From: a bacterium
Lineage (GTDB): Bacteria > Patescibacteriota > Minisyncoccia > UBA6257 > GWB1-50-10
Length of the DNA: 64,000 nt
Direction: 5' to 3'
Assembly: GCA_021812365.1 (NCBI GenBank)
Contig: JAKANQ010000001.1
Coordinates: forward strand, 32,763 to 96,762
A program made the translations under genes and the position numbers. The notes under the pieces were generated by a model. That model searched no databases. It had not been told where the DNA came from and was given only the letters and a program-made list of their open reading frames with translations. Shown piece by piece: positions 2,226 to 16,543 of this stretch (position 1 is the first letter of the stretch; each line of letters opens with the position of its first letter).

Positions 2226-2648
2226 CTAGTATCTTCGTAATCCAGTTTTATCCAATATTACCCGAACAGTTAAATAGCAAGCGGGATAAAGGATTACGGT
2301 ACCTGTGATGGTAAGCCAATTACTGGCGAAAACATCCGATCCCCAAATTAAACCAATAACAAAAAGGATTCCAAAATAAAGATAGTTGTATAGCACGCTA
2401 CCCAACATTCCCCAACGACCCAATACGGCTCTAACCGCTGCGATAATAAGTATCACCGCGAGTACCACGATAATTGATAACCAATGTGCCGACAGAAACG
2501 ACAACAAGGCATTCCACAACATGCGATATGCCTGCTTCGTTCCCTCATCAATAGCATTAAAAAACGCATCAAGCGTTTTCTTTGTAAACTCGGTTCCTGT
2601 CGCTGTGCTAGTAGAGTTCATTTTTGAGATTAAAACACATGACCCCAA
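2226..2648 (-). CDS. small polytopic membrane protein (3 predicted TM helices), last gene of the TIR operon
   Basis: 140 aa. Soluble N-terminus of about 50 aa, then three hydrophobic helices. Overlaps the upstream TIR-like gene by 19 nt, indicating translational coupling. Confidence 0.5.
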   Translation of the reverse strand: MGSCVLISKMNSTSTATGTEFTKKTLDAFFNAIDEGTKQAYRMLWNALLSFLSAHWLSIIVVLAVILIIAAVRAVLGRWGMLGSVLYNYLYFGILFVIGLIWGSDVFASNWLTITGTVILYPACYLTVRVILDKTGLRRY

Positions 2649-3181
2649 CTTAAATAAGTATCCTTGGAATAATAAGATAAGCCGCTTTTGGGAAGTTTAT
2701 TGAAATCAAATTGTGAAACTGCATCTGCTATTGGCTCTTTTTTGAAAGGTACATGAATAACCATAGCGGTTTTATTATTAATACGTTCAGTGAGAGCCTT
2801 TGGCCAAAGAGAAGATAAGGCGACAGGATCCATAATTCTTTCATAACCCGTGTATGCCGCAATGATTGGCATTTTACAGTTATCTACAGCGTGAGCTATT
2901 TCAAATGGAATCCAGTCTGTGTCTAGACGAGTCGTCGGACCGATAATCAATAGAAGATGTTTTGAATTATTCATCCTTTCTCTGAGCGCACGCCTCAAAG
3001 TTTCTTTGGTGCTTGAATCTCTAACATCACGTTTTTCGTGACTGTTTATAAATTTAAAATCTCCATCTTCATCTCTCACTTTCCACATTCGGAGCGTATT
3101 GTAATACTTCATGTCCGAATCTGTTGGATCTGAAGTATTGTTAGCATGAAATGCTACATATGTGCCGTTTCTATAGTTCAT
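2630..3181 (-). CDS. TIR-like domain protein (DUF1863/ThsB-type)
   Basis: 183 aa. N-terminal TYVAFHANNTSD matches the TIR betaA-type F-x-S-[FY]-x-x-D pattern. A central hydrophobic strand HLLLIIGPTT is followed by DWIPFEIAHAV, a W-x-x-FE motif with a candidate catalytic Glu. Overall layout resembles Thoeris ThsB as I recall it. Confidence 0.55.
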   Translation of the reverse strand: MNYRNGTYVAFHANNTSDPTDSDMKYYNTLRMWKVRDEDGDFKFINSHEKRDVRDSSTKETLRRALRERMNNSKHLLLIIGPTTRLDTDWIPFEIAHAVDNCKMPIIAAYTGYERIMDPVALSSLWPKALTERINNKTAMVIHVPFKKEPIADAVSQFDFNKLPKSGLSYYSKDTYLSWGHVF

Positions 3182-3183: not shown

Positions 3184-3786
3184 TTATTTCTCCTTTTGTT
3201 TTTTGTGGATCATTATCAGATATAAAATAATTGAGATCGAGAGAAGAATAAAAATAATTACATTAAGAAACGAACTGAGCGACAATCCGCTAATACAAGC
3301 GGCTTTAATTTCCCCGTATATTTTCGTAGCACTTATAGCAAGCAAGAGTAATGGGAAAATTATCGTATAAAGTGTCCACATCCAATCAGAAAAGATTGGG
3401 TATCGATCAAGATATGATTTTCCCTCTCGCGTAATGATGTCCTCGCCAGACTCCTTGTTTAGAGACTCCTCGATTTTATGGACGTAGGAATATTGTCTTT
3501 CAACAAAAACGGCTACTTGAAAATAGCGGATTGTGAAGATAAGCAAAAGAAACCATGCAATATTCCCTATAATAGCTAGATCTAATTTAAGATTTAAGCC
3601 AAATTTAAAATTTAAAAAATCATTAACTACAACATCGGATGTAATTGGAGAAATTATTTGAAAGGCCAAAAAACCAAGAGCGAGGACGACAAAAATCATT
3701 AAGCGATCACGCCTTTTCACACTCTCATTAATAATTGCACAAGTGTCTTTATAGTGATCGTAAATTATTGATATTTTTTCAGACAT
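3184..3786 (-). CDS. polytopic membrane protein (4 predicted TM helices), no recognisable soluble domain
   Basis: 200 aa. TM helices near LMIFVVLALGFLAFQII, LAIIGNIAWFLLLIFTI, TLYTIIFPLLLLAISA and FLNVIIFILLSISIILYLIMI. Sits between two TIR-like genes, with 2 nt and 8 nt junctions. Confidence 0.5.
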   Translation of the reverse strand: MSEKISIIYDHYKDTCAIINESVKRRDRLMIFVVLALGFLAFQIISPITSDVVVNDFLNFKFGLNLKLDLAIIGNIAWFLLLIFTIRYFQVAVFVERQYSYVHKIEESLNKESGEDIITREGKSYLDRYPIFSDWMWTLYTIIFPLLLLAISATKIYGEIKAACISGLSLSSFLNVIIFILLSISIILYLIMIHKKQKEK

Positions 3787-4234
3787 ACCTACGAATAAAC
3801 TGGTTGGGATAAGGGGCTTCGTCGAGAGCCTTTAGTATGTTTGCTTCTGTAAACGAATATACCCAAGCGGCCCTTGATCCTAAAAGTTCTTCAGGAGATT
3901 CAAACGTTCTATCTAATTTAACTGCTGCGATTCGCTTACCAAGATCAATACTTTGCCGCACTTCGAAGTTTATCCAATTTTTATATCCAATGAGGCCACG
4001 ATTTCTGTGTGGGGAGTTTGCATGTTCACCAACAATCACGAGTGTATGAGTAGCATCTTTTATCTTGGATGTAAGCGCCGCCTTTATTCTTCCGACATTT
4101 GAGCTATTAATTTCTTCTGGAGTAGCATCGTCAAATACAAATTTGAACTTTGGATTTTCATTCCAAGCTTCGAGTAGGTATTTATAATGCTTGTCGTTGT
4201 CGTAATCAAAACTGACAAATACTGAAGGTTTCAT
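3779..4234 (-). CDS. TIR-like domain protein (DUF1863/MTH538-type), second copy
   Basis: 151 aa. SVFVSFDYDNDKHYKYLLEAW is a classic TIR-like N-terminus. THTLVIVGEHANS is followed by NWINFEVRQSI, the same W-x-x-FE motif seen in the 183-aa paralog. Confidence 0.55.
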   Translation of the reverse strand: MKPSVFVSFDYDNDKHYKYLLEAWNENPKFKFVFDDATPEEINSSNVGRIKAALTSKIKDATHTLVIVGEHANSPHRNRGLIGYKNWINFEVRQSIDLGKRIAAVKLDRTFESPEELLGSRAAWVYSFTEANILKALDEAPYPNQFIRRYV

Positions 4235-4487: not shown

Positions 4488-5147
4488 TTAACTTGATTTT
4501 GGTTTTTTAATTACGTCTACGACCTTTCCGCTGATCTGAAAATCATCTCCTCTGTGAACGAATATAGGCATGAATGTTTCGGTGGATTCAGACTCAAGCA
4601 CAATCTGATCGTGTTCTTTATCTTCCTTGTAGCGTTTAATGGTGCCCATGCCGTCGATAACCGCCACCACGATATCTCCATTTTTAGGATTCTTGTAGGT
4701 GCTATCAACCACGACAAAATCACCATCCTCAATGGTTGGACCATCGGGACGTACCTTCGCCAAATTCATAGACAGACCATCTGCAACGAGAACAAAGAGG
4801 TCCTGCTTCTTACGGGGTAGCATTTTAGCGGAAACCTTGAGGTATCCCTCTGTTCGACTTTCCGCGAATATGGTTGCTGGCCCGCAATTTGCAGCTCCCA
4901 CGATAGGAAGGGAGTAGAACAGGCTCTTAGCGGCTGATTTAAGGTTAAAGCCCCTGCTTACGGGCTTTATAACGCCCTTATCGAGGTTAACCTGCAATAA
5001 CCCAGCTTTTCCCAGCTGGATCAGGTGGTGTTTCACGATCTGGGGCTTGTTTTCCACCCCGATGAGTTTAGCGATTTGGCGATAGCTCAAAGACTCCAAA
5101 TTTTGATGTTTTGAGAGGTTTAATATTGCGGCCTGGATTTTATGCAT
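4488..5147 (-). CDS. LexA/cI-like S24-family transcriptional repressor (HTH plus autopeptidase)
   Basis: 219 aa. N-terminal HTH (LSYRQIAKLIGV). C-terminal S24 fold with the Ser in VADGLSMN and the Lys in GTIKRYK. An internal GPA cleavage-site candidate is present. First gene of the minus-strand operon; divergent from a plus-strand promoter. Confidence 0.65.
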   Translation of the reverse strand: MHKIQAAILNLSKHQNLESLSYRQIAKLIGVENKPQIVKHHLIQLGKAGLLQVNLDKGVIKPVSRGFNLKSAAKSLFYSLPIVGAANCGPATIFAESRTEGYLKVSAKMLPRKKQDLFVLVADGLSMNLAKVRPDGPTIEDGDFVVVDSTYKNPKNGDIVVAVIDGMGTIKRYKEDKEHDQIVLESESTETFMPIFVHRGDDFQISGKVVDVIKKPKSS

Positions 5148-5528: not shown

Positions 5529-5561
5529 TAGGAGCGTAGGTTAACAATTTAACAGAGCATC

Positions 5562-5625
5562 GTCTGGAACGCCCAGACATTCATCTATACCAAATGGTAT
5601 GGGTGCGTGTCTGGGCGTTTTTTGT
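5562..5625 (+). terminator. rho-independent terminator with an alternative upstream hairpin (attenuator-like)
   Basis: acgcccagaca (5569-5579) can pair either with upstream gtctgg (5562-5567) or with downstream tgtctgggcgt (5608-5618), which is followed by TTTTTT. Lies in the leader of the ParB-MTase gene. Confidence 0.5.
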
Positions 5626-5683
5626 TTATCGAGTAAAGGTCGACGGTAAACATTCAAACGCCTCAACAAAAATAAACAAAAAC

Positions 5684-6976
5684 ATGAAACATCTAACTTG
5701 GCACAATGAAATAAGGAAAGTTAAGGACCTCATTCCCTGTGGTTCCAACCCACGCGTTATATCAGATAAAGAGCTTCGGGATCTTAAAAAAAGTATTAAG
5801 CGTTCAGGATATGCGGAGATTATCGCAATTGATGTTGATGGGGAAATTGTTGCAGGTAATCAGAGGCATCGCGCTCTTATGGAAATGGGTATGGGTGACA
5901 CAGAGGTAGATGTCCGGGCTCCGAGCCGTAAGCTCACAAAAGAAGAGTTCGATCGCTACCTTATAGCAAGCAACGCGCTTGGTGGCACTTGGGATTTTGA
6001 GAAGCTTAAATCGTTCAATCTCGATGAATTGATCGACATTGGATTCGATAAAAAAGAACTGGAGAATATTTGGACCGAAAATCTTGAGGTTGAAGATGAT
6101 GATTTTAACGAAACCGCTGAACTTAAAAAGATAAAGATTGCCAAAACCAAGCGCGGTGATTTAATCGCGCTTGGTCCTCATAAGCTTCTTTGCGGGGATT
6201 CTACCAAGCCTGAAACGCTCAAGCGGTTATTCGGGAAAGAACGCGCTTCTGTAATTTATAGCGACCCCGTTTATAATCTCCGTGGTGGTGTTGATTACAA
6301 CAAGGGCATCGGCGGCCGCGCAAATTATGGTGGCCATGTAAACGACACCCGCACCGACGATGAATACCGGGATTTTATTCGGAAAAGTCTTGAGTGCGCC
6401 CTTTCCGTGACTAAAGAAGATGCCCATGTCTTCTATTGGAACGACGAATCGAATATTTGGTTAATCCAAACCCTTTACCGTGAGCTAGGAATAGCGAACA
6501 AGCGCGTTTGTTTGTGGCTCAAGAACGGACAGAACCCGACTCCTGGCGTTGCATTCAATAAGTGCTATGAGCCATGCATTTACGGGGTTCGCGGAAAGCC
6601 ATATATCTCAAAGAACTTGCAGAACCTGAACGAGGTGATGAATAAGGAAATCACGACTGGCAACAGTCTCCTTGAAGAAACGCTTGATCACTTGGATGTG
6701 TGGATGGTAAGGCGTCTTTCTGGCAAAAGTTATGAACACGCCACGAGTAAACCAACCAAGCTTCACGAAAAAGCAATTCGGAGATGTACCTGTCCGGGTG
6801 AAATTATCTTGGATAGCTTTCTAGGCTCTGGCAGCACGTTAATCGCGGCCGAACAATTGAAGCGTCGCGTCTATGCCATCGAACTTGAGCCTATCTTCTG
6901 TGATCTTGCAATTAAACGGTATGAACGGCTCAGCGGGAAAAAGGCAAAAGTAATCCACCACTATGAAGAAGAATAA
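5684..6976 (+). CDS. ParB-like nuclease domain fused to a beta-class N4/N6 DNA methyltransferase (phage-type)
   Basis: N-terminal ParB/Srx-like domain (EIIAIDVDGEIVAGNQRHRA). MTase motif IV variant SDPVY and motif I LDSFLGSGST in IV-then-I order. The track ORF starts at 5594, but that extension crosses the terminator, so the Met at 5684 is the likely start. Confidence 0.6.
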   Translation: MKHLTWHNEIRKVKDLIPCGSNPRVISDKELRDLKKSIKRSGYAEIIAIDVDGEIVAGNQRHRALMEMGMGDTEVDVRAPSRKLTKEEFDRYLIASNALGGTWDFEKLKSFNLDELIDIGFDKKELENIWTENLEVEDDDFNETAELKKIKIAKTKRGDLIALGPHKLLCGDSTKPETLKRLFGKERASVIYSDPVYNLRGGVDYNKGIGGRANYGGHVNDTRTDDEYRDFIRKSLECALSVTKEDAHVFYWNDESNIWLIQTLYRELGIANKRVCLWLKNGQNPTPGVAFNKCYEPCIYGVRGKPYISKNLQNLNEVMNKEITTGNSLLEETLDHLDVWMVRRLSGKSYEHATSKPTKLHEKAIRRCTCPGEIILDSFLGSGSTLIAAEQLKRRVYAIELEPIFCDLAIKRYERLSGKKAKVIHHYEEE

Positions 6977-7364
6977 AAAGCAAAGTGAATTTTTGGAGCA
7001 ACTCAAGAAGATTCCTATTGTTTCCGTAGCTGCGGAGAAAACCGGCCTCTCGCGCAACAGTATCTATCGTTGGAAGCGGGATGATAAGGAATTTGAGAAG
7101 ACCATGGAAGATGCTCTCGCAGAGGGCGAAGCCCTTATTAACGATATGAGTGAGAGCCAACTACTCTCGTTCATCAAGGATAAGAGTTGGCAAGCGGTGT
7201 CATTTTGGTTGCGTCACAGAAACCCGAAGTTCCGCGAGCGCGTGGAAGTAACGGCGAAAATTGAAAATATTGAGTCGCTCACGCCAGAACAAGAAGATAT
7301 TGTTCGGAAAGCATTAGAGCTTGAATCGCAGGAAAAAGAATTACCAAAAGAGATACAAGTATGA
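6963..7364 (+). CDS. phage terminase small subunit-like HTH protein
   Basis: 133 aa. HTH (TGLSRNSIYRWKRDD). Overlaps the upstream ParB-MTase gene by 14 nt. Its stop overlaps the start of the large-subunit gene (ATGA). Confidence 0.5.
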   Translation: MKKNKKQSEFLEQLKKIPIVSVAAEKTGLSRNSIYRWKRDDKEFEKTMEDALAEGEALINDMSESQLLSFIKDKSWQAVSFWLRHRNPKFRERVEVTAKIENIESLTPEQEDIVRKALELESQEKELPKEIQV

Positions 7365-8800
7365 ACCAAGACAAAATCCCACAAGATGTTGTGGATGCCA
7401 TGGTGAAGGATAGGAAGATACGGATCACAATAATCAAAAAAAGCTTTTGGTACTTTTTCCACTTCTACCTTCCTCACTACATAAGATACAAAACCGCGCC
7501 GTTCCACCGCGAAATGTTTTCGATTGCGGAGAATGAATCTGTGAAAACGGTAGTTATCGAGGCGTTCAGGAATTCCGCAAAAACAACCATCATGACGCTC
7601 GCATATCCAATTTGGGCTATCATTGGCTGTCAGCAAAAGAAGTTCATCGTCATTCTCGCGCAGACTCAGCAACAGGCACGCCAAATCCTCTCAAACATAA
7701 AACGTGAGATGGAATCTAATATGTTATTGCGCGCAGACTTGGGGCCATTCGAAGAGCCAGACGATGAATGGCGTGCGGTATCTTTGGTGATTCCACGATA
7801 CGGAGCGCGTATTACGGTCGCCTCCATAGACCAATCCGTGCGTGGATTGCGGCACGGCCCCTATCGGCCCGATCTCATTATTTGCGACGACTTAGAAGAC
7901 TTGGATTCCGTGAGGAGCCGCGATATGCGCGACAAGCTCTACGAATGGCTTGTGGGCGATATTATCCCCTTAGGAGATGTGAATACCAGGTTGATTGTCG
8001 TAGGTACGCGGCTCCACGAAGATTCACTCATTATGCGTCTTCGTAAGCTGATTAGTGAGAAAAGAGTAAATGGAATTGCGCGTACCTATCCGCTCATAGA
8101 CGGGCAAGGAAATATTGCGTGGCCTGGGAAATATCCCAATGAGGAAACGATTGAAAAAGAAAAGCAACGTGTGGGCGATGAACGCGCATGGCGCAGAGAG
8201 TATTGTTTGGAAATCGTGGGCGACACCGATCAGGTAATAGACCAAACATGGATTCATTACTACGACAATCTTCCGATTAAGAAGGGTGCATACATCACGC
8301 TTACCGCAATCGACCTCGCTATTTCCGAGTCAAATCGCGCTGACTATACCGCCATGGTTACTGCAAATATATACATCATAGATGGCCAGATTTACGTCTA
8401 TATTCTTGAGCCAATCGTGAACGAACGGCTCACATATCCGGATATACTGGAGCGCGCACAAATCGTCTATTCCGCTTTCCACAAAAGCGGAGGGGTCATT
8501 ATCGTTGAGGATGTAGGTTTCCAAAAGTCTCTCGTGCAAGATCTTGAAGCTATGGGATACAACGCAGTCTCGTTTAAACCGGGCGGTGCAGATAAGCGTA
8601 TGCGTCTATCCCTTACGGCGGGAATGGTAAAATCTGGCCATGTGTTATTTCCGCGAAAGGGTGCGGAACTTCTCATTGATCAGATTGTTCATTTAGGGCA
8701 AGAGAAGCACGACGATTTGGCGGACGCCTTTTCCATGTTGGTAATAAAATCGGAAACATACCGACCATATACAGCGAGTGATTTTGTCGTTCTCGTTTAA
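7361..8800 (+). CDS. phage terminase large subunit
   Basis: 479 aa. Walker A-like FRNSAKTT and Walker B LIICDDLED. C-terminal RNaseH-like nuclease region with acidic residues (TAIDLA, HDDLADAF). Confidence 0.65.
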   Translation: MNQDKIPQDVVDAMVKDRKIRITIIKKSFWYFFHFYLPHYIRYKTAPFHREMFSIAENESVKTVVIEAFRNSAKTTIMTLAYPIWAIIGCQQKKFIVILAQTQQQARQILSNIKREMESNMLLRADLGPFEEPDDEWRAVSLVIPRYGARITVASIDQSVRGLRHGPYRPDLIICDDLEDLDSVRSRDMRDKLYEWLVGDIIPLGDVNTRLIVVGTRLHEDSLIMRLRKLISEKRVNGIARTYPLIDGQGNIAWPGKYPNEETIEKEKQRVGDERAWRREYCLEIVGDTDQVIDQTWIHYYDNLPIKKGAYITLTAIDLAISESNRADYTAMVTANIYIIDGQIYVYILEPIVNERLTYPDILERAQIVYSAFHKSGGVIIVEDVGFQKSLVQDLEAMGYNAVSFKPGGADKRMRLSLTAGMVKSGHVLFPRKGAELLIDQIVHLGQEKHDDLADAFSMLVIKSETYRPYTASDFVVLV

Positions 8801-8814
8801 CTGCTGGCATTAAA

Positions 8815-8850: not shown

Positions 8851-8855
8851 TGTTT

Positions 8856-9494
8856 TTACCGATAGTCTTCAACAATCATCGTATAAGTGCCGATTGTATT
8901 GGCATCAATGTAGTATTCTCCAGCACCGTACTCAATCGTTTCATCCTTCACCGGACCCATTACATTCATAATCGCTCCGGCTAGTATTTTACCTTTGTAC
9001 AAAAATGCCTGACAAAAATCTCCGGTACAGTCATAACGAATCCGAAAACGCGAACCCGTTATAGTAAAGGGTTCAGATTTCTTCGCGCCGTTTCCGGAAA
9101 AGGTAAAGATTTGTTGGTACGATTTTCCGGGTTGAACCGCAACTGGTTGCGTACGTTCGGGGCTTGTCGGTTGCTGATTATTAACGGTCTTACTCGCCTC
9201 GGGTGACGGCGTATTGTTCTGAGAAATCTCCGCGCCACCGTTCTTCGCTATGAAGACCCCGGCCAAAATAACCAGAATTATAATCGCCAAGATTCTAACC
9301 CCACTCGACAACTCATGCTTAATCCTACCCTCAATGATTTTGTTTATCGGCGGAATCGAAATTGTCGAGGCAACAATAAAGAGAAACCCAGCAAGTGTGT
9401 TGCTTGCTATATTAGCGATTCCCGTAATGAGCAGTATCACGCCAACCAACCATCCAAGAATCAAACCAACGGTTATTTTTTTGTTTTCGTTCAT
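8856..9494 (-). CDS. membrane protein (2 TM helices, Pro/Gln-rich linker, C-terminal beta-rich domain), unknown function
   Basis: 212 aa. Two N-terminal helices, then a low-complexity linker NNTPSPEASKTVNNQQPTSPERTQP, then a Cys-containing C-terminal domain. Confidence 0.45.
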   Translation of the reverse strand: MNENKKITVGLILGWLVGVILLITGIANIASNTLAGFLFIVASTISIPPINKIIEGRIKHELSSGVRILAIIILVILAGVFIAKNGGAEISQNNTPSPEASKTVNNQQPTSPERTQPVAVQPGKSYQQIFTFSGNGAKKSEPFTITGSRFRIRYDCTGDFCQAFLYKGKILAGAIMNVMGPVKDETIEYGAGEYYIDANTIGTYTMIVEDYR

Positions 9495-9528
9495 ATGTTT
9501 TTAGTTGAGTCTTGTTCGACCTTGAAGT

Positions 9529-9700
9529 GCTGGCTAGAAACACAAAGCTGCTAGCCAGCGGTCCCTTGCGGAACCCATACTCCTTTCGGAATATGACCAT
9601 CCCTGGTGTTCTGACTAGCAGCTCTCTACCAGGGATGGATTTAGAACCGTGCCGCCGGATTACTCCGATGGGTTAGGTTCCGCCTTACAGCTAGTAAGGC
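9529..9700. other. cluster of three strong inverted repeats (hairpins) without U-tracts; candidate structured RNA or recombination/packaging site
   Basis: 9529-9537/9551-9559 (9 bp stem); 9597-9607/9628-9638 (11 bp perfect stem); 9682-9688/9694-9700 (7 bp stem). Between the first two, the minus strand shows small GNRA-looped hairpins (TTCC-GCAA-GGGA and TCC-GAAA-GGA). Confidence 0.45.
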
Positions 9701-9844
9701 TATTCAGTTGTAAATTGATTTTAACGCATTTCGACCTTTGATTCTATACCCCTATCACAAACCATTGTTTTTGCTAAGCCGGACCATCGACACGTTGTCG
9801 ACAACTTAGCTTTACTTCCCCGACCAGTCTGTCATCCATTAAAT

Positions 9845-11164
9845 ATGGATAAAGAACAAAGGACAGGACTTATCGGCAATCCAGCTGTAGTTCCTATAAT
9901 AAAGGTCAGATATTGCTTATATGCTAGAAAGTCGACCGAACAGGACGAGAAACAAGCCCTTTCGATAGACTCACAGATAAAAGAAATGCTAGCCATCGCT
10001 GAACGCGATGAATTGGAAATAGTCGATATTCGCAGAGAAGCTCATTCAGCTAAAGATTCGGGGCAGAGACTAGTGTTCAAGGAATTATTAGAGGATATAC
10101 GACGAGGGAGATATAACGGAATTCTTACCTGGGCACCCGATCGGTTAAGCAGAAACGCAGGAGATTTAGGAAGTGTGGTTGATCTAATGGATCAAAAATC
10201 GCTTATCGAAATTCGGACTTATGGTCAACAATTCAGAAATTCTCCAAATGAAAAGTTCTTACTAATGATTTTATGCAGTCAGGCAAAACTGGAGAACGAC
10301 AATAAAAGTATCAATGTAAAACGTGGATTAAAGACAAGAGTTGAAATGGGTTTATGGCCAGCCCCAGCTCCAACGGGATATTTAAAAGAAAAGCGGATGG
10401 ATAGAAAATGTGAAACTCTTATTGACCCAGCCAGAGCGCCAGTCATCAAACAGGTGTTTGAAAAAGTTGCTTATGAAAAATGGAGTGGTCGGAAAGTTTA
10501 TAACTGGCTCAAATTCGATCTTAACTTTAAGACGGCTACTGGGAACAAGAATCTCACATTAGGGAATGTGTATATGATTCTTCAAAATCATTTCTATTAT
10601 GGAACTTTTGAATATCCTAAAAATAGCGGCAATTGGTATAAAGGAAAACATGAGCCGATCATAACTAAGGAACTGTTTGATGCGGTTCAAAACCAGGTCA
10701 AAAGCCAATTCATACGATCCGAGAGTAAGGAATTTGCTTTTACTAAATTAATGACCTGCGGCCTATGTGGATCAGGCATAACGGCCGATGAGAAGTTCAA
10801 AAAGCAGAAAAATGGGAATGTTCACCGTCACGTTTACTACGGGTGTACGAAAGTACGAGATAGAGATTGTAAATGTGGGTATATCAACGAGGTTGACCTC
10901 CTAAAACAATTTGAGAAACTTATTGAAAAAATAGATATCGACGAAATCGGAATCAAGGAGAAAATCAAAACTGAGGTTGAGCGGTTTAAGAAATTTCAGC
11001 AAGTAGTTCTCGGATCTAAGAAAAAGATTGTAGTTGCCGATATAGACATAAGAAATTATGCGAAGTACATCCTTAGGGAAAGCAAGGATATAGAGAAAAG
11101 AGAACTTCTAGGATGCCTTAGAAGTAAGATTATTTTAAATAATAAGCAAATCACCATTTCTTAA
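9845..11164 (+). CDS. large serine recombinase (resolvase/invertase catalytic domain, recombinase domain, zinc ribbon)
   Basis: 439 aa. Catalytic YARKSTEQ with the Ser nucleophile, then a recombinase domain, then a C-terminal Cys cluster CGLCGS ... CKCGY. Confidence 0.7.
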   Translation: MDKEQRTGLIGNPAVVPIIKVRYCLYARKSTEQDEKQALSIDSQIKEMLAIAERDELEIVDIRREAHSAKDSGQRLVFKELLEDIRRGRYNGILTWAPDRLSRNAGDLGSVVDLMDQKSLIEIRTYGQQFRNSPNEKFLLMILCSQAKLENDNKSINVKRGLKTRVEMGLWPAPAPTGYLKEKRMDRKCETLIDPARAPVIKQVFEKVAYEKWSGRKVYNWLKFDLNFKTATGNKNLTLGNVYMILQNHFYYGTFEYPKNSGNWYKGKHEPIITKELFDAVQNQVKSQFIRSESKEFAFTKLMTCGLCGSGITADEKFKKQKNGNVHRHVYYGCTKVRDRDCKCGYINEVDLLKQFEKLIEKIDIDEIGIKEKIKTEVERFKKFQQVVLGSKKKIVVADIDIRNYAKYILRESKDIEKRELLGCLRSKIILNNKQITIS

Positions 11165-11243
11165 TGAACTACTCTCTTGCGGTATCAAAAAAATCATTGA
11201 ATTTAAGGGGTCTACTGAGCTTTCCCGGGGACGAATTGAATAG

Positions 11244-11249
11244 TATAAT
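11244..11249 (+). promoter_or_regulatory. TATAAT -10 element 8 nt upstream of the MTase ATG (leaderless-type start)
   Basis: agTATAATcaaacaaaATG. No convincing -35. Confidence 0.3.
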
Positions 11250-11257
11250 CAAACAAA

Positions 11258-14200
11258 ATGTCGGACACATTACTTAAAGTAGTTCCAAAACAGCGGAAAT
11301 ACTATCAGGATAAAGCTAATAGCCTGAGGCTACTTGCGGCAAAAGAATTGAGAGATGCCTTTTTGGCCTCCTATGATGAGGATATCTCTCGAAAAACTGT
11401 TTCCGAGTCTTGTTTGGCTGAGTATATTGATACCTTTCCCGATCAAGACTCAGTAAAAACTTTTGCCTTTAATCTTTTAATAAACAATAAAGCTATAGAC
11501 GACTTACTGAAGGGATATGATCCGATAGAAATATCATATGTTGGCTCTTATATAGGAGAGGCAACCTACAGATCCTTTATCAGTCCAACTGATATTTCTC
11601 GAGTAATGGATTTCTTGGCACCATCAAAGGCTATTGGGTATTTTTTCACACCACCGGAGGTAGCATTCTTAATGGCCGATAAAATAATATCTTCTACTGA
11701 CAAAAGTATTGATATCCTAGATCCGAGTGCTGGATACGGTTCGCTATTAGTCGCGTCCTTAATAGTAGCAAAGAATAAAGGGGCAAAATTTAGTTCTGTA
11801 ACCGCAATTGAAGTTGATTCATTTACCTCAAAGAATTTAAAAAAGATTCTTGAAAGAGTTGTCGAGCTATTAGAATTTGATACAAAGCTAAATATTATCA
11901 ATGAAAATGCCATAGGATATTTAGCCAATAGTTTAAACGGTTTATTCGGTCGCCCTGCAAGATTTCAAAAAATCATAATGAATCCACCCTATGGGAGGGT
12001 GAAGTTTTTGAAAAACTTTTTAACAAACAAAGAAACTAGAACCTCTAGCGCTTTATTATCTCACGAAGAACAAGGGATAAAAATAAAAACAAAAGTAGAA
12101 AAGCTAACAAGAGAATTAGATATCATTTCACAAAAGCTCGGTTTCGATTCCAACGTAAGAGAGTACTCGAAATTATTTGTTGCATTAAGCCTCTCAAACT
12201 TAGCTCCCGACGGCCGGATGAGCGTGATTACCCCAAGTACTTGGCTTGGTGATGTTGAGTCGTATGACTTAAGGAAATTAATCATTAACAACTCATACCT
12301 AGAGCAAATTTTACTTTTCCCTGAAGACAGCGGCTTATTCGAAACCGTGAATCAACACACGGCAGTCAGTATCTTGTCTAAACAAGAAAAGGAAATGTTC
12401 GAGATTGTATCCGATTACAATTTGAATGTAAAATTTAGCAGGTCAAACAAGGTTTACTACGCCGATATTAAAAAAAATAATCCACAGGGATTAAAAATCC
12501 CGAAGCATGGCTCGGAGCATGATGAAATCATTTCCAAAATTCAACAACATAAACCGATCCGGCTAATTGAAAACTTAAAGAACCTTAGGGGAGAAATAGA
12601 TCTCTCCTTAAACAAGGATCTAGTATCCAACAAAGACACTGGCCGTCGATTAATCAGAGGCGATCACGTGGAAAGGTACATACTGCATCCGACGACAAAA
12701 TCTAAACGAGATGGATTCATTGAAGAAAGTAGGCTTGGCGAGAAGTTTCGATCACTTCCTAAATTTAAAGATAGTTTAAATTTCAGAATTGTTGGACGCC
12801 AAGTTTCTTACTTAGATAAAAAGAGGCGCTTAGATTTTTGCCTTATTGATCCTGATAGTTTTGTGAGTAATTCTTGCAACTACCTTTACTTTAAGTCTGA
12901 CGACGGCCAAAAAAAACCGAGCAGAAAGTTACTATCTTTATTGGGGATATTAAATAGCTCTGTTCTTGAATGGTATTTCAGGCTTTACAATAGCAACAAC
13001 CATGTCGCTAACTACGAGATAGCAAATTTTCCAGTCTGCTTAGATAGTGAATTTATTCCGCTAATAGCGAAATCTACGGAATTTCTTATCGGGGCATATA
13101 AAGAAGAATCACGGGATGAATCTGTTTCTGGCATAGAAGATTTCCACGATGCCTTGGTTGGCGTGGCGTATGATCTTACGCCAATAATGATCGGTACTAT
13201 TATGGAGTCAATTGACCCCAAAAGAAAAGGTAGGGTTGTAAATTTTGCGGAACACATATGTGAAGGTAATCTACCTCTCGATTTTATGAAGAGCGATCAT
13301 TGGTTTAATCATTATGTCTCAACGCTGTCTGATTTAGACCAAGAGATAATTAAACATGTTCCCCAAGGAGGAAATTGGCAAGATATTCCCGAGGAAGTTC
13401 CTTCTCAAAGGCTACGGCAGATACGTGAAATGTCGAAAGAGCGCGGTGTTGTGCGAACTACCTATTATGGAAGACTAAGACCGGATCAACCATCATATAC
13501 CATTGCTACGTACTATAATCGTCCCGGTAATGGAACAAACATTCATCCATGGGAAGACAGGACGATTTCTTCGCGTGAAGCGGCAAGACTCCAATCTTTT
13601 CCCGATAGTTATATTTTCTTTGGATCTGAAGGCGGTATTAGAACTCAGATAGGAAATGCCGTCCCTCCGCTACTTGCTTATTCATTGGGAAAGCATATCG
13701 GAAGCCGCTATGGCTTTGGCACCTGCGTTGACGCCTTTGCCGGTGCCGGTGGTCTAAGTTGTGGATTAGAGCTTGCTGGCTGGAAAGTGATTGCGGCTAA
13801 CGACAATGATAAACACGCCTCAATAACTTACCGGGCGAATAGGCCCACGGAAAAGACGCCGACTAGTGATGACAAAAAGACTTTCTTTGTAGAGGGAGAT
13901 ATTAACAATAAGAAAATTTGGGAAGAACTTTTATCAGGAATCAAAAAGAAGCTCGGCAATAAAGAATTAGATCTGCTAGTAGGTGGCCCACCGTGCCAAG
14001 GGTTTTCCCACGCTGGATTCAGAAGAGAGGATGATATACGCAACGACCTAGCCTCTATATATTTGAAGCTAGCAATTAAGCTAAGTCCTAAGACCTTTAT
14101 TCTTGAAAATGTAGAGGGACTTCTCACATACAATTCCGGACAGGTAGTAAAGGATATCATTGAGGCTTTGACGGATATCGGCTATCACGTTGAAGCTCCA

Positions 14201-14521
14201 TGGGTACTTAACGCAGAGCAATTTGGCGTACCTCAAATGCGAAGACGAGTATTGATTGTTGCGAATAGAAAAGAAATTGTGCCAAATATGCCAAACTTAT
14301 TTCGCAAATGTGCTGGTCGACGTTCTGGAAAGGTTATTGAGCAACTACACTTAGCACCTCCCGTGACTGCGGGAGAGGCTCTTATAGATCTACCACCGCT
14401 AAAGAAAAGAAGATTTCTAAAGGGAATTAATGATATTAACAAATTGTATTCCCAATGGTTAAAAGGGCTAATTAGCGCTGAGAGATTCCTAGAATCGCGA
14501 TCTAAGATAAGGGAATCGTAG
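11258..14521 (+). CDS. fused DNA methyltransferase: N-terminal gamma-class N6-adenine MTase (Eco57I/TaqI-like) plus C-terminal circularly permuted C5-cytosine MTase
   Basis: 1087 aa. N-terminal motif I ILDPSAGYGSLL and motif IV IIMNPPYG. C-terminal region carries motif IX/X (REAARLQSFPD, GNAVPP) before motif I (FAGAGGLSCG), motif IV (GGPPCQGFS), motif VI (ENVEGLL) and motif VIII (QFGVPQMRRRVLIV). Confidence 0.7.
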   Translation: MSDTLLKVVPKQRKYYQDKANSLRLLAAKELRDAFLASYDEDISRKTVSESCLAEYIDTFPDQDSVKTFAFNLLINNKAIDDLLKGYDPIEISYVGSYIGEATYRSFISPTDISRVMDFLAPSKAIGYFFTPPEVAFLMADKIISSTDKSIDILDPSAGYGSLLVASLIVAKNKGAKFSSVTAIEVDSFTSKNLKKILERVVELLEFDTKLNIINENAIGYLANSLNGLFGRPARFQKIIMNPPYGRVKFLKNFLTNKETRTSSALLSHEEQGIKIKTKVEKLTRELDIISQKLGFDSNVREYSKLFVALSLSNLAPDGRMSVITPSTWLGDVESYDLRKLIINNSYLEQILLFPEDSGLFETVNQHTAVSILSKQEKEMFEIVSDYNLNVKFSRSNKVYYADIKKNNPQGLKIPKHGSEHDEIISKIQQHKPIRLIENLKNLRGEIDLSLNKDLVSNKDTGRRLIRGDHVERYILHPTTKSKRDGFIEESRLGEKFRSLPKFKDSLNFRIVGRQVSYLDKKRRLDFCLIDPDSFVSNSCNYLYFKSDDGQKKPSRKLLSLLGILNSSVLEWYFRLYNSNNHVANYEIANFPVCLDSEFIPLIAKSTEFLIGAYKEESRDESVSGIEDFHDALVGVAYDLTPIMIGTIMESIDPKRKGRVVNFAEHICEGNLPLDFMKSDHWFNHYVSTLSDLDQEIIKHVPQGGNWQDIPEEVPSQRLRQIREMSKERGVVRTTYYGRLRPDQPSYTIATYYNRPGNGTNIHPWEDRTISSREAARLQSFPDSYIFFGSEGGIRTQIGNAVPPLLAYSLGKHIGSRYGFGTCVDAFAGAGGLSCGLELAGWKVIAANDNDKHASITYRANRPTEKTPTSDDKKTFFVEGDINNKKIWEELLSGIKKKLGNKELDLLVGGPPCQGFSHAGFRREDDIRNDLASIYLKLAIKLSPKTFILENVEGLLTYNSGQVVKDIIEALTDIGYHVEAPWVLNAEQFGVPQMRRRVLIVANRKEIVPNMPNLFRKCAGRRSGKVIEQLHLAPPVTAGEALIDLPPLKKRRFLKGINDINKLYSQWLKGLISAERFLESRSKIRES

Positions 14522-16082
14522 TAGAATCGCTGAGGATAGAAAAAACTTGGCGTAACTTTTTGCTTAGAGCAGAGTACTTCTTAGAATCAATTTTCTTTGA
14601 TCGCAAGCCTGAGATATTGCTTTCTCTTTTTGTGCTAGAAACATTTGTTTTCATAGCCCTGTCCCAATTCTTCATATCTGGTGACAGAGGTATTTTCTTT
14701 GCTTCGGCAACAACCGCATCAATTTCGCCACTAAAGTTATCTACGTAGATCTTACGCACCTTCCTATCAACAATGGACTTATCTTGATAAAGCATAAGTT
14801 CTTCGAACGCTATGCGAATTATTCTGTTCGAAAGACTATTGCGAAGCTTAGTATTGATTGGCGTTTTACTAAAGCTTGCAAAGGTTAGGTCACTAGAATT
14901 AAGTTTGTCGAACTTAACTCTGAACAGCGCATATTCTGGATGGAGTATCGTCGTTAGATATTCTGAATAACCGTTCTCGAAAAGAGAGTAAAGCGTTCTA
15001 AGATAGAAGTCTTGCATCGCCCTCATGTAGTCACTCAACTCTTTGGCATCCCTATCGTTTTTGACCAAAAACTTGTACTTATCCCACAATGGTTGCACTT
15101 GCCAACTAGCCACAGATTCATTTGTGCGTTTTTCATAGTCAATTAATATCTTTATATCGCTTAAAAACATTCTGCGATTCTTACTACTATTACAAGGTCC
15201 GCAAGTTGGGAGAAATAAAGGAAGCTGTTTAAATCCACAAGCTAAAGGACCAACATGATCTGGACTTATTTTCTTAAGCTTTTTGCCGCATATGTAACAC
15301 CTTCCGGCGCCAGCGGAATTATATAGCGCGTCAGCGATCAGCCAATCGCCGTCAGACCATAATTCAAAAACCCTTCTATCGTGAAGATAAGATTTAAGGT
15401 TTTCGGGCGATCTTCCGGGGTCTTTTGTAGCTCTGCATAAGTGGCAATAGTCATGGAAACCATCTAAGCGATCTGGTGGATTGCACATGAAACCGGGACT
15501 CAGATAGACTGAACGAATATAATTACTTTTCTCAAAAGCTTCTTTGGAAAAACCAAATTTATTAAAGAAATCAGCTCTTTCGGGAAAAATCTTTTCTAGG
15601 CGCTCTTCAATCTGCTTTTTATTTTCGATTCCGCCAAGAATTTTGATCGCCTCGTCAATAGGCATCTTTTTTGAGAATAGAGAAGTTTTTGTTTCTCTGT
15701 TTAGATATTCTGTAAATACGTGATTGAGATAGAAATAGCCGACGTTTTGCGATTTCCCGCATAGACGACAAGGTCTATAGCCTGTGGGGCTAATCAACCT
15801 CGCCGTTATACTAAAACGATCATCAGAATTTCCTTTTCCCGGAACTTTAAGACTGTTCGCCTTTTTAACCCACCACTCAAAGCGCTCTACGTAATATTTG
15901 TAAAAAGAGGTTGATTTGCCAGAGCTGACTTGCCAATTTATTTTCCCATTTTCAGATATGGCGTTAGGCATTCCTTTGAAGTTGGGGTGTTTAACAATAA
16001 GGCCCATGTAATCAATGTAATTTTGATGGGCCTGATATTTCCCTCTGCCGTAAACTGGTTTTGCCATTTCCTTCACTTCCAT
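14502..16082 (-). CDS. putative HNH-type restriction endonuclease (Type IIS-like partner of the fused MTase)
   Basis: 526 aa. HNH/His-Me finger CYICGKKL ... SPDHVGPL ... CGPCNSSKNRR. Convergent with the MTase and overlapping it by 20 nt. AT-rich. Confidence 0.5.
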   Translation of the reverse strand: MEVKEMAKPVYGRGKYQAHQNYIDYMGLIVKHPNFKGMPNAISENGKINWQVSSGKSTSFYKYYVERFEWWVKKANSLKVPGKGNSDDRFSITARLISPTGYRPCRLCGKSQNVGYFYLNHVFTEYLNRETKTSLFSKKMPIDEAIKILGGIENKKQIEERLEKIFPERADFFNKFGFSKEAFEKSNYIRSVYLSPGFMCNPPDRLDGFHDYCHLCRATKDPGRSPENLKSYLHDRRVFELWSDGDWLIADALYNSAGAGRCYICGKKLKKISPDHVGPLACGFKQLPLFLPTCGPCNSSKNRRMFLSDIKILIDYEKRTNESVASWQVQPLWDKYKFLVKNDRDAKELSDYMRAMQDFYLRTLYSLFENGYSEYLTTILHPEYALFRVKFDKLNSSDLTFASFSKTPINTKLRNSLSNRIIRIAFEELMLYQDKSIVDRKVRKIYVDNFSGEIDAVVAEAKKIPLSPDMKNWDRAMKTNVSSTKRESNISGLRSKKIDSKKYSALSKKLRQVFSILSDSTTIPLS

Positions 16083-16150
16083 AACCGAAATATGCCACTT
16101 TTTAGGTGTTTTTACAATGTTGTTTTTGTTTTATCAAGAACACCAAAAAG

Positions 16151-16180
16151 AAAAACCACTGAAATTTATCAGTGGTTTTT
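16151..16180. terminator. bidirectional rho-independent terminator
   Basis: aaaaaccactga / tcagtggttttt arms around a 6 nt loop, with A-run and T-run flanks. Confidence 0.6.
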
Positions 16181-16285
16181 CTTTCTTGAATACGGCACTC
16201 AGCCGGTATGCTATGGACTGTATGGAGTGCTCTCGCTCTTCGGCTTGATCCACGCTTCTCGAGCGGGATAACCTATCACGAGTTG

Positions 16286-16338
16286 GCTGGGGGACTAGGA
16301 ATCGGACCTAGATTCACGGCTTCAAAGGCCGCTGTCCT
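16286..16338 (-). repeat. 53 bp exact direct repeat of the 3' part of tRNA-Gln (tRNA positions about 20 to 3' end), 100 bp from the gene
   Basis: gctgggggactaggaatcggacctagattcacggcttcaaaggccgctgtcct is identical at 16286-16338 and 16386-16438. Confidence 0.8.
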
Positions 16339-16386
16339 GTCGCTCGCGCAGTGAGGAAATAAATACATGAACATTTCTATGCATTG

Positions 16387-16457
16387 CTGGGGGACTAGGA
16401 ATCGGACCTAGATTCACGGCTTCAAAGGCCGCTGTCCTACCATTAGACGATCCCCCA
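16387..16457 (-). tRNA. tRNA-Gln (anticodon UUG); CCA not encoded
   Basis: Minus strand TGGGGGATCGTCTAATGGTAGGACAGCGGCCTTTGAAGCCGTGAATCTAGGTCCGATTCCTAGTCCCCCAG. Acceptor TGGGGGA/TCCCCCA, 3 bp D-stem, anticodon stem GCGGC/GCCGT, loop CUUUGAA, T-stem CTAGG/CCTAG. The T-loop is noncanonical (UCCGAUU). Confidence 0.65.
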
Positions 16458-16523
16458 GCAATACACACAAAAACATGTGCATGTATTATATTTCCGAACG
16501 AAACGTAGTGACAAGCGTAGCGC

Positions 16524-16543
16524 TACCATTAGACGATCCCCCA
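16524..16543 (-). repeat. 20 bp exact copy of the tRNA-Gln 5' end (positions 1-20), about 80 bp upstream of the gene
   Basis: taccattagacgatccccca occurs at 16438-16457 (inside the tRNA) and again at 16524-16543. The breakpoint is the same D-loop position where the 3' repeat begins. Confidence 0.7.

What the first reader, a model, noticed from the sequence alone, without database searches (positions are those of the whole stretch)
11258..16082. Type IIS-like R-M system: fused N6A plus circularly permuted m5C methyltransferase with a convergent HNH endonuclease
The 1087-aa methyltransferase has an N-terminal gamma-class N6A domain (DPSAGYG, NPPY). Its C-terminal C5 domain has motif order IX-X-I-IV-VI-VIII, a circular permutation as reported for M.BssHII-type enzymes. 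The convergent, overlapping 526-aa ORF carries an HNH/His-Me finger (CxxC ... DHVxP ... CxxCN). As I recall, a dual-methyltransferase fusion with a separate HNH endonuclease is the arrangement of the Esp3I/BsmBI/Eco31I family, which cut outside asymmetric sites, with one methyltransferase domain for each strand. The block is AT-rich and lies on a mobile island.
Basis: partly seen in the sequence, partly recalled or inferred. Interest (0 to 1): 0.55.

Follow-up and report, generated by a model that had tools for sequence, protein, structure and literature searches.

The report
Esp3I/BsmBI-family type IIS restriction-modification system
This is an intact but ordinary member of the well-known Alw26I/Eco31I/Esp3I (BsaI/BsmBI) family of type IIS restriction-modification systems, carried as cargo on an integrated mobile element in an uncultured candidate-division WS5 bacterium.

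Summary
Observation and interpretation both hold. M (11258-14521, +, 1087 aa) and R (14502-16082, -, 526 aa) are convergent and overlap by 20 nt.

R passes the curated NCBIfam model for Alw26I/Eco31I/Esp3I endonucleases (503 bits, cut-off 444). It is 51% identical to BsmBI and to the Hafnia alvei (probably Esp3I) enzyme, and keeps the HNH residues.

M is a gamma-class N6-adenine domain fused to a circularly permuted C5-cytosine domain. It aligns end to end (40% identity) with the fused 1061-aa methyltransferase next to the Hafnia endonuclease, which has the same tail-to-tail layout. The permutation is already published for this family (M.Alw26I, M2.Eco31I, M.Esp3I, M.BsmBI, M2.BsaI).

Likely mechanism, by homology: m5C on GTCTC and m6A on GAGAC, with a monomeric single-site HNH enzyme nicking both strands at N1/N5. 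A GTCTC core is likely. The sixth base is unresolved, with a lean towards CGTCTC.

The cassette sits beside a large serine recombinase in a prophage-like island abutting tRNA-Gln, as in its four independent closest relatives. NCBI already names a 94%-identical WS5 protein with this family.

Verdict: new member of a known kind, low interest. Side observations: GTCTC depletion confined to the island, and an unexplained tRNA-Gln flanked by its own fragments.

The parts
11258..14521 (+). Fused bifunctional DNA methyltransferase gene (1087 aa): N6-adenine domain followed by a circularly permuted C5-cytosine domain
   Evidence: ORF. Pfam N6_Mtase, Eco57I, TaqI_C and DNA_methylase. TIGR02987 met_A_Alw26 scores 333.8 bits, just under the 353.5 cut-off, and TIGR00675 dcm scores 166 bits. 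PADLOC MTase_II PDLC03237 matches full length at 1e-296. 40% identity over 1030 aa to the fused M of the Hafnia Esp3I-like locus.
11624..12457 (+). N6-adenine methyltransferase catalytic region (aa 123-400), with motif I DPSAGYG (nt 11720-11740) and motif IV NPPY (nt 11981-11992)
   Evidence: Pfam N6_Mtase covers aa 123-397. Motif positions.
12821..13036 (+). TaqI_C-like target-recognition region of the N6A domain (aa 522-593). It lies after the catalytic motifs, which is the gamma-class order.
   Evidence: Pfam TaqI_C scores 24.5 bits, just below the 26.5 cut-off. TIGR02987 spans aa 124-641.
13304..13573 (+). Target-recognition region of the C5 domain (aa 683-772), placed before motifs IX-X because of the permutation
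   Evidence: 76% identical to the Esp3I-like M and 55% to the M2.Eco31I-like protein. Aligns to the variable region and motif IX of DNMT1.
13574..13669 (+). C5 motifs IX (REAARLQSFPD) and X (GNAVPP), aa 773-804
   Evidence: Positions. Aligns to HaeIII residues 273-322 of 324.
13721..14287 (+). C5 motifs I to VIII (aa 822-1010): FAGAGG, catalytic PPCQGFS, ENV and QxRxR
   Evidence: Pfam DNA_methylase aa 822-1010 matches profile positions 2-168. HaeIII residues 4-168. Motif positions.
14502..14521 (.). 20-nt tail-to-tail overlap of the M and R coding regions
   Evidence: Overlapping convergent 3' ends also occur in relatives L004 (4 nt), L007, L008 and L010 (about 23 nt).
14502..16082 (-). Type IIS restriction endonuclease gene of the Alw26I/Eco31I/Esp3I family (526 aa). 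Gene callers in other assemblies start at Met6, nt 16067, giving 521 aa.
   Evidence: TIGR02986 scores 503.2 bits, above the 443.85 cut-off. PF09665 at 3e-92. PADLOC REase_II at 2e-174. 51% identity to BsmBI and to the Hafnia enzyme.
15171..15299 (-). HNH (beta-beta-alpha-metal) nuclease motif, aa 262-304: C262, C265, D275-H276, C294, C297, N298, R303-R304
   Evidence: Pfam HNH_5 covers aa 262-305. The residues are invariant in 45 homologues, except C297, which is His in the Hafnia enzyme. The AlphaFold model has strand 273-276, strand 290-293 and helix 295-299. The HNH site was shown by mutagenesis in Eco31I.
16145..16186 (-). Strong hairpin followed by a T-run (terminator-like), between the tRNA-Gln region and the R start. 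It would insulate R from tRNA read-through.
   Evidence: (I10). A hairpin at the equivalent position, different in sequence in L010, is seen in L007 and L010. The function is inferred.
9845..11164 (+). Large serine recombinase (439 aa) immediately upstream of M, the likely integrase of the element that carries the system
   Evidence: Pfam Resolvase, Recombinase and Zn_ribbon_recom. A homologous recombinase (62-89% identity) is adjacent to M in L007, L008/L009 and L010.
16286..16543 (-). tRNA-Gln(UUG) 16386-16457, flanked by an exact copy of its 3' 53 nt (16286-16338) and of its 5' 21 nt (16523-16543). This is the attachment-site region at the right edge of the island.

Best explanation
This is a complete, apparently functional type IIS restriction-modification system of the Alw26I/Eco31I/Esp3I (BsmAI/BsaI/BsmBI) family, of the fused-methyltransferase (Esp3I/BsmBI/Alw26I) type.

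Shown here: family membership of both proteins, intact catalytic motifs, the permuted C5 domain, the convergent overlapping gene layout, and carriage on a recombinase-bearing island.

Inferred by homology:
- The C5 domain methylates the inner cytosine of the top strand, 5'-GTCTC (GTm5CTC).
- The gamma-class N6A domain methylates the adenine of the bottom strand, 5'-GAGAC (GAGm6AC). Each strand of the asymmetric site is thus protected by its own domain of one polypeptide.
- The endonuclease binds the same site as a monomer. It uses its single HNH (beta-beta-alpha-metal) active site to nick the two strands one after the other, 1 nt and 5 nt downstream, leaving 4-nt 5' overhangs on unmethylated (foreign) DNA.

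The recognition sequence most likely contains the GTCTC core. Whether a sixth base is read is not settled. R is as close to BsmBI and to the Esp3I-like enzyme as they are to each other, and the C5 target-recognition region is much closer to the Esp3I-like M than to M2.Eco31I. Both points give a modest lean towards CGTCTC.

The cassette is cargo at the tRNA-Gln-proximal edge of a prophage-like integrative element driven by a large serine recombinase.
For: Family membership of R:
- TIGR02986 scores 503 bits, above the 443.85 cut-off.
- PF09665 matches profile positions 1-503 of 507.
- PADLOC REase_II matches at 2e-174.
- 312 homologues were found, including BsmBI and the Hafnia alvei enzyme at 51% identity.

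Catalytic integrity of R:
- C262, C265, D275, H276, C294, N298, R303 and R304 are invariant in 45 homologues.
- R237 and R440 correspond to BsmBI R233 and R438, whose mutation gives strand-specific nickases.
- The AlphaFold model is confident (pLDDT 91) and has strand-strand-helix around the motif.

M:
- It aligns end to end with the fused M of the Hafnia locus, and a full-length PADLOC profile matches.
- All N6A and C5 motifs are present.
- The permutation is shown and is published for the family (PMC5944983).

Mechanism from the literature:
- Eco31I has a single HNH site, does not dimerise and nicks sequentially (PMC3664794; PMC3061085).
- m6A goes on GAGACC and m5C on GGTCTC (PMC4659465).

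Specificity lean:
- R is 51% identical to BsmBI and to the Esp3I-like enzyme, which are 49% identical to each other, against about 35% to the Eco31I-like R.
- The C5 target-recognition region is 76% identical to the Esp3I-like M against 55% to the M2.Eco31I-like protein.
- GTCTC/GAGAC is depleted in the island: 6 observed against 16.9 expected, P = 0.002, rank 3 of 512 pentamers. There are no CGTCTC or GGTCTC sites there.
- The rest of the window shows no depletion (62 against 63.5). Related elements L007 and L010 rank 7 and 19 of 512.

Architecture: a convergent fused M is the commonest layout in relatives.
Against: - No biochemical or methylome data exist for this system. Activity and specificity are inferred.
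- The N6A half scores just under the NCBIfam cut-off for met_A_Alw26 (333.8 against 353.5 bits). It is only 30-36% identical to the Esp3I-like N6A half, so its exact target could differ.
- No Alw26I, BsmAI or BsaI endonuclease sequence was available. A 5-bp and a 6-bp site therefore cannot be told apart.
- The host part of the window shows no GTCTC avoidance. Related element L008 and the Hafnia locus show no depletion either, so the depletion signal is weak.
- Whole-chain fold searches did not recover an HNH structure above noise. The family has no solved structure detectable by sequence.
- No promoter could be assigned.
Confidence: 0.9

Rival explanations
1. It is the same family but with a recognition sequence that is new for the family: a different sixth base, a degenerate base, or an altered core. 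In that case the GTCTC or CGTCTC prediction is wrong.
For: - R is only about 50% identical to any characterised enzyme.
- The N6A half is only 30-36% identical to the Esp3I-like M and falls under the NCBIfam cut-off.
- The lineage (candidate division WS5) is far from all characterised sources.
Against: - Every characterised member reads GTCTC with or without one extra 5' base.
- BsmBI and the Esp3I-like enzyme share, on the inference that the Hafnia enzyme is Esp3I, one specificity at 49% identity.
- The C5 target-recognition region is 76% identical to the Esp3I-like one.
- GTCTC is among the most depleted pentamers in the island.
Confidence: 0.2
2. It is a decayed or silent system. The methyltransferase is active but the endonuclease is inactive or not expressed, so the locus acts as an orphan methyltransferase or epigenetic module and not as a defence.
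For: - Decay occurs in this family. The E. coli Eco31I-like locus L011 has a truncated R and a broken M1, and the Bacteriovoracaceae locus L016 has a frameshifted R.
- No promoter could be assigned for R.
Against: - R is full length with every invariant residue of 45 homologues.
- R stays intact and under conservation in relatives that have diverged to 79-94% identity.
- The same M plus R pair was recovered identically in several independent samples.
Confidence: 0.08
3. The HNH protein is a phage packaging or homing HNH endonuclease that works with the nearby terminase, and is not a restriction enzyme.
For: A terminase large subunit lies 6 kb upstream. HNH endonucleases next to terminase genes are common in phages (PMC3592412, listed).
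Against: - R matches the restriction-enzyme family model over its whole 500-aa length and above the curated cut-off.
- In every relative it is paired with the dual methyltransferase, including loci with no phage genes.
- It is separated from the terminase by three genes on the other strand.
Confidence: 0.01

Closest known systems
Esp3I R-M system (CGTCTC 1/5), taken here to be the Hafnia alvei endonuclease Q8RNY4 and its neighbouring fused methyltransferase (loci L004-L006)
   Same: - The endonuclease is about 530 aa with the same HNH motif, 51% identical.
- A single fused N6A plus permuted-C5 methyltransferase is about 1060-1090 aa, 40% identical end to end, with 76% identity in the C5 target-recognition region.
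- The genes are convergent with overlapping 3' ends, and the locus lies on an integrase-bearing island.
   Different: - The host is a gammaproteobacterium, against candidate division WS5 here.
- The mobile element there has a tyrosine integrase, against a serine recombinase here.
- The N6A half is only 30-36% identical.
- The fourth Zn ligand is His in the Hafnia enzyme and Cys here.
- That Q8RNY4 is Esp3I itself is my inference from the organism and the 2002 deposit. It was not checked against REBASE.
BsmBI (Geobacillus stearothermophilus, CGTCTC 1/5; Q69B20)
   Same: 51% identity over the whole endonuclease. The HNH residues are conserved, as are the two arginines (BsmBI R233 and R438, here R237 and R440) whose mutation gives nicking enzymes. 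Its methyltransferase is also listed among the permuted C5 enzymes.
   Different: BsmBI comes from a thermophile, while this host is uncultured.
Eco31I / BsaI / EcoMI (GGTCTC 1/5)
   Same: Same endonuclease family, with a single HNH site and a permuted C5 methyltransferase. m6A goes on one strand and m5C on the other, and R is encoded on the strand opposite to M.
   Different: There are two separate methyltransferase genes (M1 for m6A, M2 for m5C) rather than one fusion. R is only about 35% identical, and the C5 target-recognition region 55%.
Alw26I / BsmAI / BcoDI (GTCTC 1/5)
   Same: Same family by name of the curated models (TIGR02986, PF09665). M.Alw26I and M.BsmAI carry the permuted C5 domain. 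From my own memory of Bitinaite et al. 1992, M.Alw26I is a fused bifunctional enzyme like this one.
   Different: The recognition site is 5 bp. No sequence was available here, so relative closeness was not measured.
M.BssHII (circularly permuted C5 methyltransferase)
   Same: The same type of permutation, with the new N-terminus in the variable region so that motifs IX-X precede I-VIII.
   Different: From my own knowledge, not checked here, M.BssHII is a stand-alone C5 enzyme of a palindromic type IIP system (GCGCGC). It is not fused to an N6A domain and not paired with an HNH type IIS enzyme. No sequence comparison was made.

Membership tests
Alw26I/Eco31I/Esp3I type IIS restriction endonucleases (TIGR02986, PF09665) | Full-length match to the curated family model above its trusted cut-off | tested here: met
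   TIGR02986 scores 503.2 bits against a 443.85 cut-off, covering aa 19-437 and model positions 1-423 of 425. PF09665 scores 310.9 bits against 23.1, covering model positions 1-503 of 507.
Alw26I/Eco31I/Esp3I type IIS restriction endonucleases (TIGR02986, PF09665) | A single HNH / beta-beta-alpha-metal active site with Zn-binding cysteines, as mapped by mutagenesis in Eco31I | tested here: met
   C262, C265, D275-H276, C294 and N298 are invariant in 45 homologues and align with BsmBI and the Esp3I-like enzyme. Pfam HNH_5 covers aa 262-305 at 27.2 bits. The model has strand-strand-helix at 273-299. Whole-chain structural searches were uninformative.
Alw26I/Eco31I/Esp3I type IIS restriction endonucleases (TIGR02986, PF09665) | Conservation of the arginines whose mutation turns BsaI, BsmBI and BsmAI into strand-specific nickases | tested here: met
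   BsmBI R233 and R438 (PMC3017599) map to window R237 and R440. Both are invariant.
Alw26I/Eco31I/Esp3I type IIS restriction endonucleases (TIGR02986, PF09665) | Recognition of a GTCTC-core asymmetric site and cleavage at N1/N5 | not testable with these tools
   Only indirect hints are available: GTCTC depletion in the island and target-recognition-region similarity to the Esp3I-like M.
Alw26I/Eco31I/Esp3I companion methyltransferases | An N6-adenine methyltransferase of the met_A_Alw26 type (TIGR02987) | tested here: inconclusive
   It scores 333.8 bits over aa 124-641, just under the curated 353.5 cut-off. It does align colinearly with the N6A half of the Esp3I-like M at 30-36% identity, and it matches a full-length fused PADLOC profile at 1e-296.
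Alw26I/Eco31I/Esp3I companion methyltransferases | A C5-cytosine methyltransferase with circularly permuted motif order (TRD-IX-X-I...VIII) | tested here: met
   Motif positions. M 824-1010 aligns to HaeIII 4-168, and M 768-816 to HaeIII 273-322. The trait is published for the family (PMC5944983).
Alw26I/Eco31I/Esp3I companion methyltransferases | m5C on the GTCTC strand and m6A on the GAGAC strand | not testable with these tools
   Known for Eco31I/EcoMI (PMC4659465). It needs a methylome for this host.
Fused (Esp3I/BsmBI/Alw26I-type) sub-architecture | Both methyltransferase domains in one polypeptide, encoded convergently with R | tested here: met
   One 1087-aa ORF. The same layout is seen in the Hafnia locus, in Halobacillus, Castellaniella and Iodobacter, and in the close relatives L007, L008 and L010.

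The most novel reading that the evidence does not exclude
Two readings are not excluded.

(a) The enzyme reads a site not yet available among commercial GTCTC-family enzymes, for example a different or degenerate flanking base. It would then be a new Golden Gate-type tool from a candidate-phylum bacterium.

(b) The conserved recombinase plus M plus R block is a self-contained mobile unit that large serine recombinases move into tRNA-Gln genes. The odd 'tRNA flanked by its own 3' and 5' fragments' structure, also seen next to an unrelated serine recombinase in L020, would be the footprint of a so far undescribed integration mode that splits the tRNA gene and supplies a replacement.
Probability: 0.15. 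Interest if true: 0.4.

Novelty: new member of a known kind. Interest (0 to 1): 0.15.

Why it matters
It matters little for biology in general. It extends a thoroughly characterised and commercially important enzyme family (BsaI, BsmBI, Esp3I) to candidate division WS5. It also shows the system travelling as cargo of a serine-recombinase element. NCBI's pipeline already names a 94%-identical relative with this family. The practical value would be a possible new type IIS isoschizomer or specificity variant. The family still lacks a solved structure, so any well-behaved member is a candidate for structural work.

Tried and rejected
- **PDB sequence search with R:** no hit.
- **GTCTC avoidance in the whole window:** absent (70 observed against about 80 expected). 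Only the island is depleted. Related element L008 and the Hafnia locus show none, so I treat this as a hint only.
- **Promoter scan:** no more sites than in shuffles (11 against 12.3).
- **Original papers not held:** Bitinaite 1992, Bitinaite 2002 and Jakubauskas 2007. Their content is cited second-hand through papers that are held.
- **Plasmid and phage collections:** only distant relatives, at 31-39% identity.
- **Genome scan:** only 7 loci, because the peptide patterns were strict.
- **Alw26I, BsmAI and BsaI endonuclease sequences:** not obtained, so no tree anchored on all three specificities could be made.
- **Island left border:** a search for a tRNA-derived repeat there found none.
- **Rfam on the R to tRNA spacer:** only the tRNA and hairpin noise.
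- **Phage-packaging HNH idea:** rejected. See the rival explanations.

Full report
**1. Observation**

The two ORFs exist exactly as described. M is 11258..14521 (+, 1087 aa) and R is 14502..16082 (-, 526 aa). They converge and share 20 nt, with both stop codons read directly.

- N6A motif I DPSAGYG at aa 155-161 and motif IV NPPY at aa 242-245.
- C5 motifs in the order IX (773-783), X (799-804), I (827-832), IV PPCQGFS (911-917), VI ENV (950-954), VIII QxRxR (993-997).
- In R: C262xxC265, D275-H276-V-G-P and C294xxC297-N298.

The cassette is mildly AT-rich, at 39.4% GC against 44.7% for the DNA to its right.

**2. What the proteins are**

R matches the curated NCBIfam model 'Alw26I/Eco31I/Esp3I family type II restriction endonuclease' at 503 bits, above the 444-bit cut-off. 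It also matches Pfam RE_Alw26IDE over the whole profile at 3e-92, plus HNH_5, and a PADLOC type II REase profile at 2e-174.

M matches several models:
- N6_Mtase, Eco57I and TaqI_C, followed by DNA_methylase.
- The family-specific adenine-methylase model TIGR02987 at 333.8 bits, just under its 353.5 cut-off.
- A 1036-position PADLOC profile of fused type II methyltransferases, end to end, at 1e-296.

The fused architecture is therefore itself already represented in a profile.

**3. The circular permutation is real and is a family trait**

M 824-1010 aligns with residues 4-168 of M.HaeIII, which are motifs I to VIII. The preceding segment M 736-814 aligns with the C-terminal motif IX/X region of DNMT1, and M 768-816 with HaeIII 273-322 of 324.

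[quoted passage not shown] The permutation is thus expected for this family. It is not an additional novelty.

**4. Comparison with characterised systems**

A homologue search found 312 relatives of R. Named ones are BsmBI (Q69B20) and a Hafnia alvei endonuclease (Q8RNY4). I take the latter to be Esp3I. That is an inference from the organism and the 2002 deposit.

R is 51% identical to each. They are 49% identical to each other. All three are about 33-35% identical to the Eco31I-like R of an E. coli locus.

The contigs carrying the Hafnia enzyme show R (533 aa) converging on, and overlapping by 4 nt, a 1061-aa N6A+C5 fusion. That protein aligns with the window's M over 1030 residues at 40% identity. 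Identity by segment:

| Segment of M | Identity to the Esp3I-like M |
|---|---|
| N6A half | 30-36% |
| C5 target-recognition region | 76% |
| Motifs IX-X | 69% |
| Motifs I-VIII | 53% |

Against an M2.Eco31I-like protein the C5 target-recognition region is only 55% identical. That protein is L011 6667..7857. Its N- and C-termini match the M2.Eco31I sequence in the supplement of PMC10810934, and it has the same 396-aa length.

Across genomes, the convergent fused layout recurs in Halobacillus, Castellaniella and Iodobacter. Split C5 and N6A genes occur in Ca. Woykebacteria and Ekhidna, as in Eco31I.

**5. Integrity of the nuclease**

In an alignment of 45 homologues at 43-83% identity, the following are invariant: C105, C108, H210-D211, C216, C262, C265, D275-H276, C282, C294, N298 and R303-R304.

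BsmBI R233 and R438 give top- and bottom-strand nickases when mutated (PMC3017599). They correspond to R237 and R440 here, and both are invariant.

An AlphaFold model built on that alignment is confident (pLDDT 91.2). It places D275-H276 at the end of a strand (273-276), followed by a second strand (290-293) and a helix (295-299) carrying N298. That is the beta-beta-alpha-metal order.

**6. Mechanism (inferred by homology)**

For Eco31I/EcoMI, the adenine enzyme makes GAGm6ACC on the bottom strand and the cytosine enzyme makes GGTm5CTC on the top strand (PMC4659465). Eco31I is a two-domain protein with one HNH site. It does not dimerise, and it nicks the two strands sequentially at similar rates (PMC3664794; PMC3061085).

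I therefore expect the following:
- The window's fused M protects both strands of a GTCTC-core site, with one domain per strand.
- R cuts unmodified DNA at N1/N5.

**7. Specificity hints**

The host part of the window shows no GTCTC avoidance, with 62 sites against 63.5 expected.

The island (2200-16285) has only 6 GTCTC/GAGAC sites against 16.9 expected. This gives P = 0.002 and rank 3 of 512 pentamers. It has no CGTCTC or GGTCTC at all. All six surviving sites are preceded by A or T.

Related elements L007 and L010 rank GTCTC 7th and 19th of 512. L008 and the Hafnia locus show no depletion.

This fits an element that has long travelled with a (C/G)GTCTC-specific system inside a recently colonised host. 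The numbers are small, however. I give about 0.75 to a GTCTC core and about 0.35-0.4 to CGTCTC specifically.

**8. Genomic context**

The host is a candidate division WS5 bacterium. The exact M sequence is in NCBI, ENA and Logan assemblies on contigs up to 116 kb. A 94%-identical R from a WS5 MAG (RJO61195.1) is already annotated with the family name.

Upstream of M lie these genes:
- a large serine recombinase (9845..11164)
- a terminase large subunit (7361..8800)
- an AlpA/HTH-like small protein
- a ParB-like N6/N4 methyltransferase (5594..6976)
- an S24 LexA-like repressor (4488..5147)
- two ThsB-type TIR proteins (2630..3181 and 3779..4234)

A homologous serine recombinase is adjacent to M in all four independent close relatives. 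These have R 79-100% and M 69-100% identical to the window.
- In L007 and L010 the recombinase is co-directional with M, and the element again abuts a tRNA-Gln.
- In L008/L009 it is inverted, and the genomic context is different.

More distant family members lack the recombinase. The R-M pair is therefore cargo of one lineage of serine-recombinase elements. 'Lies on a mobile island' is supported, although the left border was not defined by any repeat.

**9. Side observation, not explained**

tRNA-Gln(UUG) at 16386-16457 is flanked by an exact copy of its 3' 53 nt (16286-16338) and by an exact copy of its 5' 21 nt (16523-16543). The two fragments overlap by the dinucleotide CT in the intact gene.

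L007 and L010 have one complete tRNA-Gln exactly where the window has the 53-nt fragment. The window therefore looks as if a 185-bp piece (spacer, whole tRNA, spacer) had been inserted into that tRNA.

An unrelated metagenome contig (L020) shows the same arrangement directly beside a different 516-aa large serine recombinase.

**10. Verdict**

Observation confirmed and interpretation supported. This is a new, uncharacterised member of a very well-known kind of system. Interest is low at 0.15. The only open points are the exact recognition sequence and the integration chemistry of the carrier element.

Noticed in passing
window 16286-16543; also L020 1440-1660, L007 28-101, L010 14256-14327: tRNA-Gln(UUG) (16386-16457, minus strand) is flanked by exact copies of its own 3' 53 nt (16286-16338) and 5' 21 nt (16523-16543). 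The two fragments overlap by CT in the intact gene. Close relatives have a single intact tRNA-Gln at the position of the 53-nt fragment. An unrelated contig (L020) shows the same layout next to another large serine recombinase. The structure formally looks like attL, then a 185-bp insert carrying a whole tRNA, then attR. The mechanism is unexplained.
   Followed up: partly
window 2200-16285 compared with 16500-64000: GTCTC/GAGAC is depleted about 2.8-fold in the island (6 against 16.9 expected, rank 3 of 512 pentamers; no CGTCTC or GGTCTC) but not in the host DNA (62 against 63.5). Related elements L007 and L010 show weaker depletion, and L008 shows none.
   Followed up: yes
window 16500-64000: The host part of the window is strongly depleted in pentamers containing GATC and CATG: GATCA 63 against 135 expected, GATCC 49 against 105, ACATG 35 against 79, CATGA 96 against 155. 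This suggests long-term exposure of this lineage to GATC- and CATG-specific restriction systems.
   Followed up: no
window 2630-3181 (-), 3184-3786 (-), 3779-4234 (-): Two ThsB-type TIR-domain proteins (183 and 151 aa) bracket a 200-aa predicted membrane protein at the left end of the island. No ThsA-like gene was seen nearby. This may be a second, Thoeris-like or TIR-based, defence module on the same element.
   Followed up: partly
window 4488-8800: Prophage-like module: an S24 LexA-like repressor (4488-5147, -), a ParB-like N6/N4 DNA methyltransferase (5594-6976, +), a small AlpA/HTH protein (6963-7364, +) and a terminase large subunit (7361-8800, +). No capsid or tail genes lie between it and the recombinase, so it looks like a satellite or remnant and not a full prophage. 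The ParB-methyltransferase plus terminase plus recombinase plus R-M order recurs in L007 and L010.
   Followed up: partly
window 16190-16285 (minus-strand sense: between the tRNA fragment and the hairpin at 16145-16186): An approximately 100-nt non-coding stretch between the tRNA-Gln fragment and the terminator-like hairpin is conserved in L007 and partly in L010 (TTGAATACGGCxCTCAGCxGGTATG...). It has no Rfam match. It could be part of the element's attachment site or a small RNA.
   Followed up: partly
L011 (E. coli CP054241.1 468960-480072): An Eco31I/EcoMI-type locus next to McrBC in an E. coli record is decayed. R is truncated at 401 aa and unannotated, M1 is broken to a 214-aa ORF, and the 396-aa M2 (C5) is intact.
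   Followed up: partly
window 11164-11277 (+): Gene callers in other assemblies call a 37-aa ORF that bridges the recombinase stop and the M start. It has no family hit, and it is probably spurious and not a controller protein. No C-protein gene accompanies this system.
   Followed up: no
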